Positions 16,935-50,430 of a stretch of 64,000 nt of DNA are shown here, one piece after another (position 1 is the stretch's first letter; the number at the start of each line of letters is the position of its first letter). Both the position numbers and the translations under genes were made by a program. The stretch lies in NCBI GenBank assembly GCA_002898395.1, contig BEHE01000009.1, positions 1 to 64,000 on the forward strand. Direction: 5' to 3'. The DNA comes from Candidatus Calditenuaceae archaeon HR02 (lineage in GTDB: Archaea; Thermoproteota; Nitrososphaeria_A; Caldarchaeales; Calditenuaceae). The notes beneath the pieces were generated by a model. That model saw only the letters and a list, made by a program, of their open reading frames with translations. It made no database searches and was not told the origin of the DNA.

Positions 16935-17011
16935 ATTTGTGAGAGGTTACAGAGAGGTATCGGCATGAGAATGAAACACAGACGAAAACTCGCCCCCTCC
17001 CCCCTTATCCC
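16935..17011. repeat. Dispersed repeat family C, copy 1 (77 bp; partner 27187-27262)
   Basis: atttgtga-aggttacagagaggt...gagaatga...cagacgaaaac-cgccccctcccc...ttatccc is shared with about 10 differences. Confidence 0.9.
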
Positions 17012-17059: not shown

Positions 17060-17131
17060 TGGGGCCGGTGGGAATCGAACCCACGACCTCCGCCGTGTGA
17101 GGGCGGCGTCATACCGCTAGACCACGGCCCC
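17060..17131 (-). tRNA. tRNA-Val(CAC), intronless, CCA not encoded
   Basis: Reverse complement GGGGCCGTGGTCTAGCGGTATGACGCCGCCCT-CAC-ACGGCGGAGGTCGTGGGTTCGATTCCCACCGGCCCCA folds as a cloverleaf. Confidence 0.97.
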
Positions 17132-23170: not shown

Positions 23171-23457
23171 TTTATCGTAGTGATTGGTAAACTACGGTAG
23201 AATCATAGTGATGGGTTAAACGCCCAAATTAGGGAAAAATGGGGGAGGGGGTTAGCCCAGCAGACAACCAGCCCAGCAACAAGGATAAACCCGAGGCCGG
23301 CATGTCAAGAAGGTTAACGGACTGGCATTTTCGCCAGTCATGTCTGGAGTTTAAACGGCCGGCCTCTTTTGGGTTTCCTAGATGTTGTTGGGCTGGTTGT
23401 CCGATGGCTAACCCCCCGTCTTTCCATTGTTTAAGTTTTTAATCCTTCACTATGGTT
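23171..23457 (+). ncRNA. Putative structured ncRNA, copy 1: small 5' hairpin plus ~257 nt rod with symmetric variable internal loop
   Basis: Arms 23201-23301 pair with 23358-23457; apical GACTGGC-attttc-GCCAGTC; G-U pairs favour the + strand; homologue at 47303-47509. Confidence 0.7.
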
Positions 23458-23520
23458 GTCGGATGATATTGAGTGTTTTAAGCCGCTCTCTCGGCCCCTC
23501 TTAGAGAGCCTTCTCGCGAC
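23270..23520. repeat. Dispersed repeat family A, copy 1 (partner ~47318-47579)
   Basis: Shared blocks such as gcccagcaaca, aaacccgaggccgg, aacggactggcattttcgccagtcatgtc, tttgggtttcctagatgttgttggg, tctttccattgttt, agtgttttaag, cttagagagccttct-gcgac. Confidence 0.95.
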
Positions 23521-23668
23521 CTTCTACGAGTCTGTCAAATATCTGCTCCTCCAGCTCGCTCATCCTAGACTTCAGCTGGCCAAGGGCCTCGTTAAGAAGA
23601 TTCTCACAGGTCTGTGCCTCGCTTAGTAGAGCGTTCCTCTCGTCTGAGAGCTGGTTGAGCTTCTTCAC
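23501..23668 (-). pseudogene. Coiled-coil gene fragment (55 aa)
   Basis: VKKLNQLSDERNALLSEAQTCENLLNEALGQLKSRMSELEEQIFDRLVEGREKAL*; in-frame TAG shortly upstream. Confidence 0.4.
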
Positions 23669-23802
23669 GGATCGGAGGTCTGGGCACTACTTATCAACCC
23701 CAATAAAGTCCCAGGTAAGATAACCACAAGGCTGGACTTCCTATGCTACCAGTCATGGTAGGTTTTAAATTTAAAGAGGTAATCATGTATGTCTGGGGTT
23801 GG

Positions 23803-26863: not shown

Positions 26864-27022
26864 TTAAAGCAGAATAGAAATTGTCCTGAAGACGGTTTGA
26901 GGGGTTCTGATGAAGGGAGATTTAAACGGGAGGTAGGCTGGTTTAGCGCTTTTTCCATGTGATACTCGCCCCCGCCCTACATCTATTATCTTCTTGACTT
27001 GTTTCTTAGTTTTGTGTTGCAT
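26864..27022 (-). pseudogene. N-terminal gene remnant carried by repeat family B
   Basis: MQHKTKKQVKKIIDVGRGRV...; the first 13 codons recur at 46840-46877. Confidence 0.45.
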
Positions 27023-27114
27023 CGGGGGCATCTAATTTGTTCTGTGTTTATGTATTGTTGGCATTTTGAGGAGTATTTAAATCACCTACCATATGCACCA
27101 CTACTAGCGTCGGG
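26985..27114. repeat. Dispersed repeat family B, copy 1 (partner 46840-46959)
   Basis: attatcttct-gacttgtt-cttagttttgtgttgcatc...gtttatgtattgttggc-ttttgag-agtatttaaatc...ctagcg-cggg. Confidence 0.93.
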
Positions 27115-27186
27115 GGTATCGAACTCTCAACAAAGACGATATGGCATTATAGGGATGAGATAGGAGAAAGGAAGGATTGGTGGAAG

Positions 27187-27262
27187 ATTTGTGATAGGTT
27201 ACAGAGAGGTCTAGGCAGGAGAATGAGGCGCAGACGAAAACCCGCCCCCTCCCCTTTATCCC
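27187..27262. repeat. Dispersed repeat family C, copy 2
   Basis: Direct-orientation match to 16935-17011. Confidence 0.9.
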
Positions 27263-45972: not shown

Positions 45973-46809
45973 TTAGTGTTTGACTATCTCTACTCCAAGC
46001 TGTCGGAGCTTCTCAACCACGAGTCCCCTATGCTGACCATGGATACCCTTCCAGTCAATAACCGCCACACTACACCCGTCCACAACACTTCTAATAGCCT
46101 CACCCAGAAGATCGAGCGCCCCGGGGATAAAGTATTTTGGAAGTATGTGTCCAAAGTCATGCTCGCCGAGGCTCATCAGCCGGGTAAAGGTGGGTGCATA
46201 GTGTCCTCCGCCTACGCCTATCGCGGCAGACCTTGACGGCCCCGCGAGACACGCCTCAATACACGCCTCAGCCACGGCCTCCGCCGCCCTCTCGTCAGTC
46301 CTAGCCTCGACAGGCCCACCGAACTCAACGTATACCATTGGTACAGGTGAGTAGGGGCCGTGATGTGTGACCTCCAGCCCCACCCACCAGTCTCGCAGAC
46401 TGCTGCTTTCCTCGACGGCCCGTCTGAGAGTGTTGTAGGCAGCCCTGATGGCACCAGCTAGTGTTAGAGACAGTGCGCGCGGTTTTCCTCCCATGCTCAC
46501 GTCGCAAGTCCAGTTGCCCGTTGCGTGAGTAGTAAGTGCCTTTGTCCCACTCTCCGACCTATGGGAGGATGCTACTACTATGAGGTCTGCTTTGAGTTCC
46601 AATATCTCCTCCTCTGTGAGGTAGAGGTGGTGTTTATCGACGACTATTGCTGATACTGGGCGCCCGCGCAGAAACTCCACTCCCGCTTCTTGGACAGGCT
46701 CAAACCCAAACCTCTCTACAAGGCACTCCCTAACAAGCATTGACGAGCTATCAGCACGTGATATGAGGATAAAGCGTCCGGCCAAGGGCTTTGAAGGGTT
46801 AAACGGCAC
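45973..46809 (-). CDS. dtdA: D-aminoacyl-tRNA deacylase (DTD2)
   Basis: SSHRSESG, LTTHATGN, LEVTHHGP, GGGHYAP, GHILPKY. Confidence 0.92.
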   Translation of the reverse strand: MPFNPSKPLAGRFILISRADSSSMLVRECLVERFGFEPVQEAGVEFLRGRPVSAIVVDKHHLYLTEEEILELKADLIVVASSHRSESGTKALTTHATGNWTCDVSMGGKPRALSLTLAGAIRAAYNTLRRAVEESSSLRDWWVGLEVTHHGPYSPVPMVYVEFGGPVEARTDERAAEAVAEACIEACLAGPSRSAAIGVGGGHYAPTFTRLMSLGEHDFGHILPKYFIPGALDLLGEAIRSVVDGCSVAVIDWKGIHGQHRGLVVEKLRQLGVEIVKH

Positions 46810-46839
46810 CCCGACTATTTATAGAGTCGTGAGTTAAGG

Positions 46840-46959
46840 ATTATCTTCTCGACTTGTTCCTTAGTTTTGTGTTGCATCTAGGGCATCTTTGTTTATGTAT
46901 TGTTGGCTTTTTGAGCAGTATTTAAATCCCCTATTGTATGCATCACCCCTAGCGGCGGG
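46840..46959. repeat. Dispersed repeat family B, copy 2
   Basis: Matches 26985-27114; minus strand carries ATTTAAAT and then MQHKTKEQVEKII. Confidence 0.93.
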
Positions 46960-47072
46960 ATAGTATCTTAGACTCACATTTTCAAGCCTTACCATAATGG
47001 TGTCTGGGGAGTAGTCTTACCTTGATTGGCCTCTCCCTATCTAATAATAGCTCATAATCATGTATTGGTTAG

Positions 47073-47333
47073 GGAGCTCTAGCTGAGCTATTGACGTATG
47101 TTGATTTCAGTAAGTCATTTAGGAGGGTTCGTGGATACTTGAGGCTGTATCGGCGACGGTCGTATAATAGGAGGTATGGACATGCGACGCGTGAAGCGTT
47201 GGGAGGACTTACGATGGCGGTAATTGGTAGATATAGGTTGAGGGCTAGGGATCAAGAGGATGTGCTGAAGATGTGGCTGATGTTCTGAGGGGAGACATGG
47301 AGGCCGGCGGGTATACCGGCCCAGCAACAGTGA
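47073..47333 (+). pseudogene. Decayed C-terminal fragment of a putative IS110/Nop-domain-like protein
   Basis: *GALAELLTYVDFSKSFRRVRGYLRLYRRRSYNRRYGHATREALGGLTMAVIGRYRLRARDQEDVLKMWLMF*GETWRPAGIPAQQQ*; resemblance to IS110 C-terminal domains judged by eye. Confidence 0.5.
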
Positions 47334-47509
47334 TAAAACCCGAGGCCGGTATGACCCACGGGTTTAAACGGACTGGCATTTTCGCCAGTCATGTCCAACA
47401 CATAAACAACCGGCCTCGTTTGGGTTTCCTAGATGTTGTTGGGATGGTTGTCCGCCGGCTAACCCTCCCATCTTTCCATTGTTTGAGTGTTTAACACATC
47501 ACTATGATT
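47303..47509 (+). ncRNA. Putative structured ncRNA, copy 2
   Basis: GCCGGCGG/CCGCCGGC, CCCAGCAACA/TGTTGTTGGG, AAACCC/GGGTTT, CGAGGCCGGT/ACCGGCCTCG, identical apical hairpin to copy 1. Confidence 0.7.
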
Positions 47510-47668
47510 ATCTTATCTAATGGTATTAAGTGTTTTAAGTCGCGCCTCCTCAGTCCAGCTTAGAGAGCCTTCTTGCGACTGATGGTTCTTCGCCCGTCAA
47601 CTCTTTGAATAGAGGGAGTAGAAGTATCGATACAATGATAGGCAGATTAAAAGGGGCCAGGGGAAGGG

Positions 47669-48202
47669 ATGGGCGAGGCTGCCGGCCGCGTGGCAGAGGC
47701 GTTAGAGAGGGTGGGGCTCAGAAGCGAGGTTTTCACCGATCATGGTGGTTACCCAGTCGTGTGGGGGGAGCTTAGGGAGGAGCGGCATGGCACCCTTCTA
47801 ATTTATAACCACTACGATGTCCAGCCACCAGACCCCCTGGAGAAATGGGCTTCACCACCCTTCCAGCCGACCATTAGAAACGGTAGAGTGTATGCTAGGG
47901 GTGCATGCGACAATAAGGGGAACCTAGCAGCAAGGCTATGTGCCTTAGACCTACTGCTGGACGCTATCGGCGAGGTGCCCCTAAACATCAAGTTCCTAAT
48001 AGAGGGTGAAGAGGAGATTGGCAGCCCACATCTCAGCAGGCTGTTATGGTTGATGCAACAAGAGGGTGGCGGGACTATTTTTACCTGCAGACGAGGGGGA
48101 AGAGGAATTAAACTCGCTAGGAGAAGGGATAACCATAATCATAGAAGTTGTGGAAGAGAAAAATGGTGTGTAAGACTAGGGAAAACAATACTTGTTAGTT
48201 AA
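47669..48202 (+). pseudogene. Truncated M20 peptidase/deacylase
   Basis: YNHYDVQPP, ARGACDNKG, IEGEEEIGS, then drift into unrelated AT-rich sequence; dimerisation and C-terminal parts missing. Confidence 0.8.
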
Positions 48203-50295: not shown

Positions 50296-50430
50296 ATGAG
50301 CTACATTAGGTTCTCTGAAGAAGAGTGGGAAGAGGAGGAAGAGTGGGAGGAGGACTTCGAGGAAGAGGAGGAAGAGTGGGAGGAAGAGGAGTGGGAAGAG
50401 GAGGAGTTAGAGGAAGAGGAGGAGGTATAG
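50296..50430 (+). CDS. 44 aa Glu/Trp-rich acidic micro-protein
   Basis: MSYIRFSEEEWEEEEEWEEDFEEEEEEWEEEEWEEEELEEEEEV*; TTTATA upstream, GGTGA SD, T-tract downstream. Confidence 0.8.
   Translation: MSYIRFSEEEWEEEEEWEEDFEEEEEEWEEEEWEEEELEEEEEV

What the first reader, a model, noticed from the sequence alone, without database searches (positions are those of the whole stretch)
47050..47579. Decayed IS110/Nop-like ORF whose last codons form the 5' arm of the RNA
Seen: reading through one in-frame TGA (47286) gives ...ALAELLTYVDFSKSFRRVRGYLRLY...RRYGHATREAL...DVLKMWLMF*GETWRPAGIPAQQQ* ending at 47333, inside the RNA's left stem. Copy 1 independently keeps PAQQQG* at the equivalent place (23268-23288). 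By eye the peptide resembles the C-terminal Transposase_20/Nop-like domain of IS110 proteins but is more compact. Established: IS1111-type elements place their RNA downstream of the gene. Inference: this is the cognate protein gene of the RNA, here pseudogenised.
Basis: partly seen in the sequence, partly recalled or inferred. Interest (0 to 1): 0.75.

Follow-up and report, generated by a model that had tools for sequence, protein, structure and literature searches.

The report
Decayed TasR-like gene with guide RNA
The stretch is a broken, shortened copy of a repeated archaeal unit that pairs a small RNA-guided-nuclease-like protein (nearest solved relative: TasR of TIGR-Tas systems, kin of IS110 and Nop5) with one hairpin guide RNA, and this unit seems able to move around the genome.

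Summary
Window 47053-47333 is the last ~96 codons of a 280-290 aa protein. It is broken by an ~860-bp internal deletion, a 1-nt deletion, and TGA codons at 47286 and 47331. Intact paralogues exist in the same genome (C13, C18, C7, C19). Every homologue examined is followed by the same long hairpin, whose 5' arm is the gene's last codons.

The family has no Pfam, NCBIfam or single-sequence PDB match. A profile of 29 diverse members hits TaTasR (PDB 9MTY, E 1.9e-7), TasH (4.2e-5) and IS621 (0.017). hhalign against archaeal IS110 gives P 2.9e-5. The IS110 serine loop aligns to a gap.

The RNA is one stem-loop "tandem-spacer" unit. It has 38 conserved pairs, 15 of them with compensatory changes, and G·U pairs favour the sense strand. 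Two hypervariable 7-nt segments sit between conserved motifs.

The unit is multicopy. It was found only in the window's own order (23 of 301 genomes of the phylum). One shortened derivative sits at five loci. One insertion has a 10-bp target-site duplication opposite empty sites in three relatives, and that copy's 5' spacer matches the target.

I read it as a new chromosomal, mobile, single-guide variant of TIGR-Tas/IS110-like systems. Its mechanism is inferred, not shown.

The parts
46827..46970 (+). Left end and promoter module of the unit. It is a ~130-nt module shared by about 33 places in the genome, preceded here by a subfamily-specific 15 nt.
   Evidence: Similarity to the other copies starts at 46840-46842, and at 46827 for the subfamily C9/C18a/C13a/C12/C6.
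46919..46926 (+). TATA-box-like TATTTAAA inside the module. It is the presumed promoter of the unit (inferred).
   Evidence: Conserved in nearly all module copies in the alignment. Reading it as an archaeal TATA box rests on my own knowledge; it was not tested.
46971..47052 (+). Remnant of the ~360-nt 5' leader, ending at the internal-deletion junction 47052/47053.
   Evidence: window 46840-47016 equals full-length positions 410-598, and 47043-47478 equals positions 1456-1891. Searches show the junction TAGCTC|ATAATCATG, shared by copies on C9, C18, C11, C12 and C21.
47053..47333 (+). Pseudogene remnant: the last ~96 codons of the TasR-like protein (Nop/Transposase_20-like C-terminal domain).
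   Evidence: Defects: 1-nt deletion near 47075, 3-nt deletion near 47262, AGA>TGA at 47286-47288, GGA>TGA at 47331-47333.
47289..47475 (+). Long hairpin RNA (conserved core 47306-47456). Its 5' arm is the end of the ORF.
   Evidence: Fold -94.7 kcal/mol, z -7.4. 38 consensus pairs, 92.9% of cells paired, 15 pairs with compensatory change, 0 of 500 shuffles as high.
47350..47369 (+). 5' strand of the internal loop: conserved AUG(A/U)C, variable spacer (47356-47364), conserved UAAAC.
   Evidence: Alignments. The variable columns are flanked by near-invariant ones.
47370..47390 (+). Apical mini-hairpin separating the two spacer strands (in the place of the 'loop repeat').
   Evidence: Helix 6: 7 of its 8 pairs show compensatory change.
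47391..47409 (+). 3' strand of the internal loop: AUGUC, variable spacer (47396-47402), UAAAC.
47466..47519 (+). T-rich stretch (the terminator-like ATTTTTC in most copies is weak here), followed by the right-end tail of the unit.
   Evidence: That oligo-T acts as an archaeal terminator is my own knowledge.
47520..47579 (-). Carried-along fragment of a host coiled-coil gene. It is not part of the RNA or of the element proper.
   Evidence: The same sequence is coding inside an intact 269-aa ORF at C21:20758-21564 (minus strand). Similarity to that gene starts at GTGTTTTAAG.
23185..23520 (+). Copy 1: a hairpin-only copy whose left arm is an extended inverted copy of the right side. It keeps only P-A-Q-Q-Q-G-stop (23268-23288) of the gene.
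   Evidence: inverted self-match 23201-23300; fold -111.8 kcal/mol, z -11.
26985..27120 (+). Solo copy of the 130-nt promoter module, joined to a different downstream repeat class.

Best explanation
Window 46827-47519 is a decayed, internally deleted (non-autonomous) copy of a ~1.5-kb multicopy unit of Caldarchaeales-type archaea.

The full unit has five parts:
- a shared promoter module;
- a ~360-nt leader;
- a 280-290 aa protein with a RuvC-like (DEDD-type) N-terminal domain, a coiled coil and a Nop/Transposase_20-like C-terminal domain. This is a TasR-like member of the TIGR-Tas / IS110 / Nop5 superfamily;
- one stem-loop guide RNA;
- a T-rich end.

The gene's last ~14 codons are at the same time the 5' arm of the RNA stem.

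Shown: the pseudogene status, the family, its remote homology, the RNA structure and its strand, the copy number, the spread of one deletion derivative, and one insertion with a 10-bp target-site duplication.

Inferred: the protein dimer binds the two conserved motif pairs of the internal loop. The two 7-9-nt variable segments pair with DNA as tandem spacers. The RuvC-like domain then cuts or merely holds the target. This activity serves the spread or maintenance of the unit itself, with the 5' spacer specifying or reflecting the insertion site.
For: Gene and pseudogene.

Family size and range:
- 742 homologues, with no Pfam domain on the 120 listed.
- 107 representative clusters.
- 23 of 301 genomes of the phylum carry it, all 23 within the own order (23 of its 43 sampled genomes; 0 of 258 outside). 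There are several matches in most genomes with a match (at most 8 are scored per genome).

Homology:
- A profile of 29 diverse members against PDB sequences gives 9mty_A E 1.9e-7, TasH 4.2e-5, IS621 0.017 and ISCro4 0.32, with nothing else below 0.3.
- 9MTY is TaTasR (passage in PMC12045711).
- hhalign against 11 archaeal IS110 proteins gives probability 73.8% and P 2.9e-5. The reversed-template control gives P 0.18.
- PF01548 is the only Pfam family hit weakly by more than one member: 5 of 29, best E 0.0098.
- 22 of the 30 ESM-Atlas feature hits fall in clusters carrying PF02371 and/or PF01548.

RNA:
- A hairpin follows the ORF in 20 of 20 loci from 12 genomes, G000 included.
- Covariation is reported.
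- Counted by me from the table, there are 111 G·U cells against 18 A·C cells, which favours the sense strand.
- There is exactly one motif pair per full-length unit, in 3 of the 4 units scanned; the fourth (C6) matched the scan pattern on one loop strand only (its other strand is).
- The layout [motif-spacer-motif]-hairpin-[motif-spacer-motif] inside a stem matches the stem-loop tigRNA unit described in PMC12045711 (passages) and in bioRxiv 10.64898/2026.09.09.750476 (passages). The latter also reports units lying inside the 3' end of tas genes.

Mobility:
- Five loci share one deletion junction.
- The C11 copy is absent from the orthologous site in G098, G138 and G243. It is flanked by a 10-bp duplication of a sequence present once in those three.
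- Contig depth is about 100 on the module and hairpin against about 6 on the flanks in a hot-spring run.

Spacer and target:
- The 5' loop strand of the C11 copy is identical over 10 nt to the target at the duplication.
- C18a matches 11 of 12 and C24 matches 9 of 9 in their own left flanks (sequences).
- In the formal test as run, cognate longest matches were 4-10 nt, while non-cognate pairs reached 8 nt or more in 3.2% and 9 nt or more in 2.4% of 126 pairs.
Against: No structure could be predicted because the tool was off. The fold, the missing serine hairpin and the state of the active site therefore rest on alignments only.

The profile of close members alone finds nothing in the PDB, and P0001 alone finds nothing.

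In the Caldarchaeum clade the first Asp of the K-S-D-x-N-D motif is replaced, so the nuclease may be dead.

The conserved loop motifs (AUGUC ... UUAAAC) are not the box C (CNA) and box D (YG) motifs used to detect TIGR units (Methods passage).

Spacer-target evidence is thin:
- In the test, the 3' strand and the antisense orientation show no cognate excess. The geometry of the three 5'-strand matches relative to the junction also differs between copies.
- Under the TasR rule (two spacers on opposite strands, gap 0-4) the own genome shows no excess: 7.4 hits per cognate pair against 6.0 for non-cognate and 6.0 for reversed, with 0 exact.
- Spacer-plus-motif 12-mers are only about twice enriched: 11 exact non-self hits for 20 guides, against 5 for reversed guides and 0.26 per guide for shuffled ones.

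The target-site duplication rests on one insertion. Three other occupied/empty comparisons gave no clean boundaries, and the window's own site has no empty counterpart.

There is no expression data.
Confidence: 0.7

Rival explanations
1. It is a true IS110/IS1111-type insertion sequence. The protein is a bridge-RNA recombinase and the downstream hairpin is its bridge or seek RNA, which joins donor ends to a target.
For: IS621 and ISCro4 are among the profile's PDB hits. hhalign against IS110 gives P 2.9e-5. There are weak PF01548 hits. The K-S-D-x-N-D-A motif in distant members resembles the IS110 K-T-D-x-x-D-A motif (the IS110 motif is also visible in the A4 consensus). The RNA lies downstream of the gene. 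The units are multicopy. Flanks of several copies resemble each other.
Against: TasR scores five orders of magnitude better than IS621. The Ser-Gly loop region aligns to a gap, and no serine is conserved there. The RNA has one guide loop, not two. There is a 10-bp target-site duplication. Copies are only 73-90% identical to each other, unlike a recently active IS. Canonical IS110 genes that pass the Pfam thresholds coexist in the same genome and are clearly distinct.
Confidence: 0.12
2. It is a domesticated or regulatory RNA-guided DNA binder. A catalytically impaired TasR-like protein and its guide repress promoters, in particular the shared 130-nt promoter module of its own and related repeat units. 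Copy number then reflects ordinary duplication or mobilisation by another enzyme.
For: The third acidic residue is lost in the Caldarchaeum clade. Dead stem-loop TasR proteins act as RNA-guided repressors (abstract and passages of bioRxiv 10.64898/2026.09.09.750476). The 3' loop strand of the window copy and of the C13b copy is exactly complementary over 12 nt to a site just upstream of the TATA-like box in 4 modules, and with one mismatch in about 20 more. The C11 target is itself a TATA-like sequence.
Against: These 12-nt matches include the conserved UAAAC motif, which by analogy should be protein-bound. The enrichment over controls is only about twofold, and the hits are to one repeated sequence, so they are not independent. 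D7, D48, K89 and D94 remain invariant or nearly so. That does not look like a decayed active site.
Confidence: 0.13
3. The ORF similarity is irrelevant to the hairpin. The hairpin is just a palindromic DNA repeat (foldback MITE) that happens to lie next to a repeated gene.
For: Copy 1 is a hairpin-only, extended palindrome without the gene. Either strand folds well.
Against: A hairpin is present at the ORF end in 20 of 20 loci, down to about 27% protein identity, with changed sequence but kept pairing. There are 111 G·U cells against 18 A·C cells, which points to a sense-strand RNA. The unpaired motifs are conserved and the 7-mers between them are hypervariable, which a DNA palindrome does not explain.
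Confidence: 0.05

Closest known systems
TIGR-Tas systems, TasR with stem-loop tigRNA units (Faure et al. 2025, PMC12045711; Xu et al. 2026, bioRxiv 10.64898/2026.09.09.750476). I read passages and abstracts only.
   Same: It is the best sequence match among solved structures (TaTasR 9MTY, then TasH). The proposed domain order is shared: a RuvC-like domain, a coiled coil and a Nop-type domain. The guide is a stem enclosing two short spacers, each between two conserved motifs, separated by a loop element. A unit may overlap the 3' end of the tas gene. The protein is compact.
   Different: There is one unit per gene instead of an array. The stem is very long (about 65 bp) and its 5' arm is coding. 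The loop motifs are AUGUC/UUAAAC rather than CNA/YG. The variable part is 7 nt, against the 8-12 nt reported. The host is a free-living archaeal lineage and the loci are chromosomal, whereas the 2026 preprint calls CPR bacteria the only known non-viral hosts with arrays. The gene-plus-RNA unit is dispersed in 8-14 or more diverged copies per genome, with non-autonomous derivatives and a target-site duplication. Whether these loci are already in the papers' supplementary catalogues could not be checked, because supplements are closed.
IS110/IS1111 insertion sequences with bridge or seek RNA (Durrant et al. 2024, PMC11208160: search listing and abstract only; IS621 structure 8WT6).
   Same: Remote homology over the coiled coil and C-terminal domain. 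A DEDD-like motif K-S-D-x-N-D-A in distant members. A multicopy mobile unit that carries its own structured RNA. In one to three copies the RNA loop matches the insertion site.
   Different: No conserved serine loop. One guide loop instead of a target loop plus a donor loop. A 10-bp target-site duplication. No Pfam-level match.
Archaeal Nop5 with box C/D sRNA (Vaysset et al. 2024, bioRxiv 10.1101/2024.06.21.599552; main text read).
   Same: The same superfamily by transitivity (IS110-Nop5, as that paper argues). The RNA layout has pseudo-twofold symmetry, with two guides between paired motifs. The IS110 serine beta-sheet is also lacking in Nop5.
   Different: No detectable profile similarity here (P 0.3), although my small profiles did not detect the known IS110-Nop5 link either (P 0.11). 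The acidic residues are conserved. I recognised no RUGAUGA/CUGA boxes or K-turn. The genome has its own canonical Nop5.
TnpB / omega-RNA of IS200/IS605 (from my own knowledge).
   Same: The guide RNA overlaps the 3' end of a RuvC-type nuclease gene inside a mobile unit.
   Different: A different protein family and size. The guides are internal to the RNA rather than transcribed from the flank.

Membership tests
TIGR-Tas (TasR) | Nop-type C-terminal RNA-binding domain homologous to that of Tas proteins | tested here: met
   Profile A3 against PDB: 9mty_A E 1.9e-7 (columns 84-253) and TasH 21kl_A E 4.2e-5 (columns 132-257). This is sequence level only.
TIGR-Tas (TasR) | N-terminal RuvC nuclease domain with four acidic catalytic residues | tested here: inconclusive
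   D7 and D48 are nearly invariant and D94 is invariant. The K-S-D aspartate is kept only in distant members. The N-terminal part lies outside the significant TasR alignment. There are weak PF01548 hits in 5 of 29 members.
TIGR-Tas (TasR) | Guide RNA unit with two spacers, each flanked by a box C-like and a box D-like motif, within edge repeats or a stem | tested here: met
   The layout is met, but the motif sequences differ from the published CNA/YG sets.
TIGR-Tas (TasR) | Tandem array of several units next to tas | tested here: not met
   One unit per element in all 4 full-length copies (3 by the scan alone; C6's second loop strand comes from the looser pattern), and none on the minus strand.
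TIGR-Tas (TasR) | Spacers pair with opposite strands of adjacent target segments | tested here: inconclusive
   No excess of such sites in the own genome. At the C11 target, the 5' spacer equals the top strand over 10 of 10 nt. The 3' strand matches the opposite strand over 6 contiguous nt, overlapping rather than adjacent.
IS110/IS1111 | PF01548 DEDD domain and PF02371 Transposase_20 domain | tested here: not met
   No hit at the Pfam thresholds. Only remote profile similarity.
IS110/IS1111 | Catalytic serine in the C-terminal domain | tested here: not met
   The Ser-Gly loop of the IS110 consensus aligns to a gap. No serine column is conserved there in alignment A3. This rests on alignment, without a structure.
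IS110/IS1111 | Bridge or seek RNA with separate target-binding and donor-binding loops | tested here: not met
   A single internal loop. The 5' leader is not unusually structured (z between -0.4 and +0.3).
IS110/IS1111 | Insertion without a long target-site duplication | tested here: not met
   A 10-bp duplication at the C11 insertion. This is one case. The IS110 property is recalled from memory, not taken from a call.
Nop5 / box C/D RNP | PF01798 Nop domain; box C/D K-turn RNA; fibrillarin partner | tested here: not met
   The own-genome PF01798 search finds only the canonical Nop5 on C2. hhalign against 29 Nop5 proteins gives P 0.3. No Rfam family matches. The fibrillarin partner was not tested.
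Non-autonomous (MITE-like) derivative of a mobile element | An internally deleted copy lacking the protein, present at several loci, with an insertion polymorphism | tested here: met
   The same junction occurs at five loci. The C11 copy is absent from three relatives and has a target-site duplication.

The most novel reading that the evidence does not exclude
The unit is a self-mobilising, RNA-guided element. A TasR-like nuclease with a single tandem-spacer RNA makes a staggered cut at a site specified by its own spacers, and the unit is inserted there with a ~10-bp target-site duplication. This would be a living intermediate between TIGR-Tas nucleases and IS110 bridge-RNA recombinases, in the archaeal lineage where the Nop5 ancestor has been sought.
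Probability: 0.2. Interest if true: 0.9.

Novelty: new variant of a known kind. Interest (0 to 1): 0.7.

Why it matters
TIGR-Tas systems were described in 2025 from phages, archaeal viruses and CPR bacteria, as arrays with unknown natural targets. IS110 bridge recombinases and Nop5 are held to be their kin, but no intermediate forms are known. Vaysset et al. (main text read) found no further families in 30,255 genomes.

Here a compact relative sits in the chromosomes of free-living thermophilic archaea. It has one guide per gene, the guide is fused to the gene's end, and the whole unit behaves like a transposable element. Empty and occupied sites can be compared directly.

That makes two open questions testable. 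What do such spacers target in nature? And how did RNA-guided nucleases, recombinases and snoRNP scaffolds diverge? At 283 aa with a single guide, the protein is also of interest as a tool.

For the window itself the finding is ordinary: this copy is dead.

Tried and rejected
- Single-sequence searches with the intact protein found nothing: Pfam, NCBIfam and PDB. A profile of 35 close members against the PDB found only coiled-coil noise.
- Pfam on 10 distant members gave only sub-threshold PF01548 hits.
- The homologues of distant member P0217 carry no Pfam domains (18 proteins), so there is no transitive link.
- hhalign against Nop5 gave P 0.3. The test was too weak to see even the published IS110-Nop5 link (P 0.11).
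- Rfam: only a tRNA elsewhere in the window, and one chance-level H/ACA hit at E 0.93.
- Structure prediction and fold search were not possible.
- Sequencing runs: no RNA holder is listed. Laying DNA contigs of three runs (two laid nothing) gave depth only. No joint skips the element.
- No empty site exists for the window copy. Its two flanking genes are not neighbours in any of 7 relatives.
- Occupied/empty comparisons without usable boundaries:
  - C12: 46-48 nt in two relatives against 791 nt, but the intergenic sequence is too diverged.
  - C7: it lies inside a 2.2-kb composite insertion.
  - C24: 29 nt against 619 nt, with at most a 5-6-nt repeat at the two junctions.
- The larger inserts at the C11 site in G138 and G243 are an ordinary 346-aa gene, not elements.
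- Guide-target searches in the own genome:
  - Paired 12-mers within 150 nt at up to 2 mismatches are at noise level: 44 cognate, 27 reversed, 553 for 124 non-cognate pairs.
  - Exact 12-mers are about twice enriched.
  - The tandem rule shows no enrichment.
- Flank test: only the 5' strand in sense orientation stands out. My C24 window in that script missed the match by a coordinate slip, so the 9-nt C24 match is read by eye.
- I did not scan viral contigs for spacer targets. Fourteen specified bases would give hundreds of chance hits.
- The leader holds no further guide units and is not unusually structured.
- Literature: two searches on TIGR-Tas and Caldarchaeales and term look-ups in both TIGR papers found no mention of Caldarchaeales, Aigarchaeota or Nitrososphaeria in their main texts.
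Full report
**What is at the coordinates**

The region lies between a D-aminoacyl-tRNA deacylase gene (45973-46809, minus strand) and a Peptidase_M20 gene fragment (47669-48202).

Copy 1 keeps P-A-Q-Q-Q-G-stop at 23268-23288.

The two window copies are alike only from about 47290 onward. Copy 1 therefore says nothing about the ORF body.

**The ORF is a remnant of a real, repeated gene**

tblastn of the read-through peptide (X at the stops) against the whole assembly (1.73 Mb, 36 contigs; the window is contig C9) finds 13 loci at E 3e-52 to 8e-19, plus three weaker ones. Each of the 13 lies next to a copy of the hairpin (20 places, 14 of which cover most of the hairpin).

Longer copies carry open frames of 279-292 aa ending ...PAQQQG*. 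One search lists, for the own genome:
- four frames without stops (C18, C13, C7, C19);
- one N-terminally short frame (C3);
- three frames with stops (C4, C13a, C6).

Comparison with a full-length copy and with the intact C13 gene shows the state of the window copy:
- It lacks about 860 bp between 47052 and 47053, that is, most of the leader and the first ~187 codons.
- It has a 1-nt deletion near 47075 and a 3-nt deletion near 47262.
- It has AGA>TGA at 47286 and GGA>TGA at 47331.

**What the protein is**

P0001 (283 aa) has no Pfam, NCBIfam or PDB match on its own.

It has 742 homologues. The 120 listed carry no Pfam domain and are almost all named "hypothetical". Many are from Candidatus Caldarchaeum or Nitrososphaerota. 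At the 50% identity level there are 107 representative clusters.

In a sample of 301 genomes of the phylum, the family occurs in 23. All 23 are in the window's own order: 23 of the 43 genomes sampled there, and 0 of 258 elsewhere.

Conservation:
- D7 and D48 are nearly invariant.
- K89 and D94 are invariant.
- Distant members read K-S-D-x-N-D-A where the Caldarchaeum clade has K-S-A-K-T-D.

Remote homology:
- A profile of 29 diverse members against all PDB sequences gives TaTasR 9mty_A E 1.9e-7, TasH 4.2e-5, IS621 0.017 and ISCro4 0.32. The identity of 9MTY is stated in PMC12045711.
- hhalign against 11 canonical IS110 proteins from the same phylum (loci) gives probability 73.8% and P 2.9e-5 over the coiled coil and C-terminal domain. 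A reversed template gives P 0.18.
- In that alignment the IS110 Ser-Gly loop faces a gap.
- PF01548 is the only Pfam family hit weakly by more than one member (5 of 29).
- The ESM Atlas feature search points the same way.
- Against 29 Nop5 proteins nothing is seen (P 0.3). My profiles miss the published IS110-Nop5 link too.
- The genome also has canonical IS110 genes and a canonical Nop5.

**What the RNA is**

All 20 homologous loci examined, from 12 genomes (the own genome included) and down to about 27% protein identity, have a long hairpin starting in the last codons.

On 22 sequences at 40-100% protein-level relatedness, the consensus has 38 pairs in six helices:
- 92.9% of cells are paired, against 34-44% when the partner is slid.
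- 15 pairs show compensatory change.
- 0 of 500 shuffles reach the observed values.

From the table I count 111 G·U cells against 18 A·C cells. The RNA is therefore read on the gene's strand. A T-rich run follows.

The upper part is a large, pseudo-symmetric internal loop:
- closing stem;
- AUG(U/A)C, 7 hypervariable nt, U(U)AAAC;
- a mini-hairpin that covaries;
- AUGUC, 7 hypervariable nt, UAAAC;
- closing stem.

Spacer pairs are reshuffled among copies. Full-length units have only this one motif pair: the scan shows it in 3 of 4 units and one loop strand in the fourth (C6), whose other strand is found by the looser pattern. The leader is not unusually structured. No Rfam family matches.

This layout is that of a stem-loop tigRNA unit as described in passages of PMC12045711 and of bioRxiv 10.64898/2026.09.09.750476. 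The second paper also notes units inside the 3' end of tas genes. It differs here in three ways: the motif sequences are different, the stem is much longer, and there is a single unit rather than an array.

**The unit and its mobility**

A full unit is about 1.5 kb: a left module with TATTTAAA, a leader, the gene and the hairpin.

The first ~130 nt occur at about 33 places and continue into at least five different downstream sequence classes. The module is therefore shared with other repeats.

They do not belong to the RNA.

Five copies (C9, C18, C11, C12, C21) share the same deletion junction, so a protein-less derivative has spread.

For the C11 copy:
- G098, G138 and G243 have the uninterrupted site.
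- The insertion is flanked by a 10-bp duplication of a TATA-like sequence that is present once in the relatives.

Three other comparisons gave no clean ends. The window's own site has no empty counterpart.

Contigs of a hot-spring run pile up about 15-fold on the module and hairpin relative to the flanks.

**Do the spacers name targets?**

The 5' loop strand of the C11 copy is identical over 10 nt to the target at the duplication. Its 3' strand matches the opposite strand of the same AT-rich core over 6 contiguous nt.

C18a matches 11 of 12 and C24 matches 9 of 9 in their own left flanks.

Non-cognate pairs reach 8 nt or more in 3.2% of 126 pairs. The position of the matches relative to the junction differs between copies, and the other strand and orientation show no excess.

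Genome-wide searches gave little:
- Spacer-plus-motif 12-mers are only about twice enriched. The hits are mostly to the promoter module and to left junctions, so they are not independent.
- The TasR-style two-strand rule shows no excess in the own genome.

I treat spacer-equals-target as a lead with odds of about one in three.

**Verdict**

It is a dead copy of the protein gene that belongs to the hairpin RNA, and it falls in the IS110/Nop superfamily.

The better name is TasR-like. The system is a single-guide, gene-overlapping, multicopy and apparently mobile chromosomal variant of TIGR-Tas in Caldarchaeales-type archaea. It is not an IS110/IS1111 element.

Neither TIGR paper's main text mentions this lineage, and I could not see their supplements.

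The function (cutting, binding or transposition) is inferred.

Noticed in passing
window 26985-27120 and 46840-46970; about 33 places in the genome (for example C1:30729, C4:72155, C12:24339): A ~130-nt module with a TATA-like box is shared by at least five classes of downstream sequence, and several recurrent upstream flanks go with it. It looks like a common promoter or end cassette of several repeat families.
   Followed up: partly
window 27121-27254 and 16935-17002 (next to the tRNA at 17060-17131): A second repeat class follows the module (...GCGCAGACGAAAAC CCGCCCCCTCCCC). It is also found beside a tRNA gene and at C1:88909, C1:150066, C4:72155, C28 and C29.
   Followed up: no
window 23185-23470: Copy 1 of the hairpin is an extended palindrome. 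Its left side is an inverted copy of about 135 nt of the right side, well beyond the normal stem, as if regenerated by fold-back copying.
   Followed up: partly
window 23500-23680 (minus strand); C21:20758-21564; C13:17291-17426: Fragments of a 269-aa coiled-coil gene (weak Phage_scaffold hit, E 1.8e-5, below the cut-off) travel with the right end of several units. They also follow solo modules (class 3).
   Followed up: partly
C18:400-936 and C3:~118400-119000; related sites at C19:2876, C2:61658, C6:92966, C24:19186: In some full-length copies the gene is preceded directly (without module or leader) by a repeated ORF containing an S-P-P-Y motif. This may be a DNA methyltransferase fragment, although it has no Pfam hit. 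The window copy's 5' spacer-plus-motif 12-mer matches this ORF exactly at C19:2876.
   Followed up: partly
C12:73353-73733 against window 47660-48040: The start of the M20 peptidase gene is duplicated at 99% identity near the end of contig C12, about 1 kb from another module copy. In the window this gene is only a 177-aa frame.
   Followed up: no
C1:120612-121463, C6:45214-46078, C12:53332-54049, C25:577-1297, C1:148405-149229: Canonical IS110-family genes (PF01548 and PF02371 above the cut-offs) are also present. Most are split by stops or frameshifts.
   Followed up: no
window 50317-50430: A GAG/GAA/TGG-rich tandem repeat (period 9-15 nt) at the 3' end of an ORF, coding for an E/W-rich tail.
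   Followed up: no
C19:1942-2760 and C5:49730-50130: A second, more divergent subfamily of the protein (about 56% identity, C-terminus ...ERLRVPA). Its downstream RNA was not picked up by the hairpin search.
   Followed up: no
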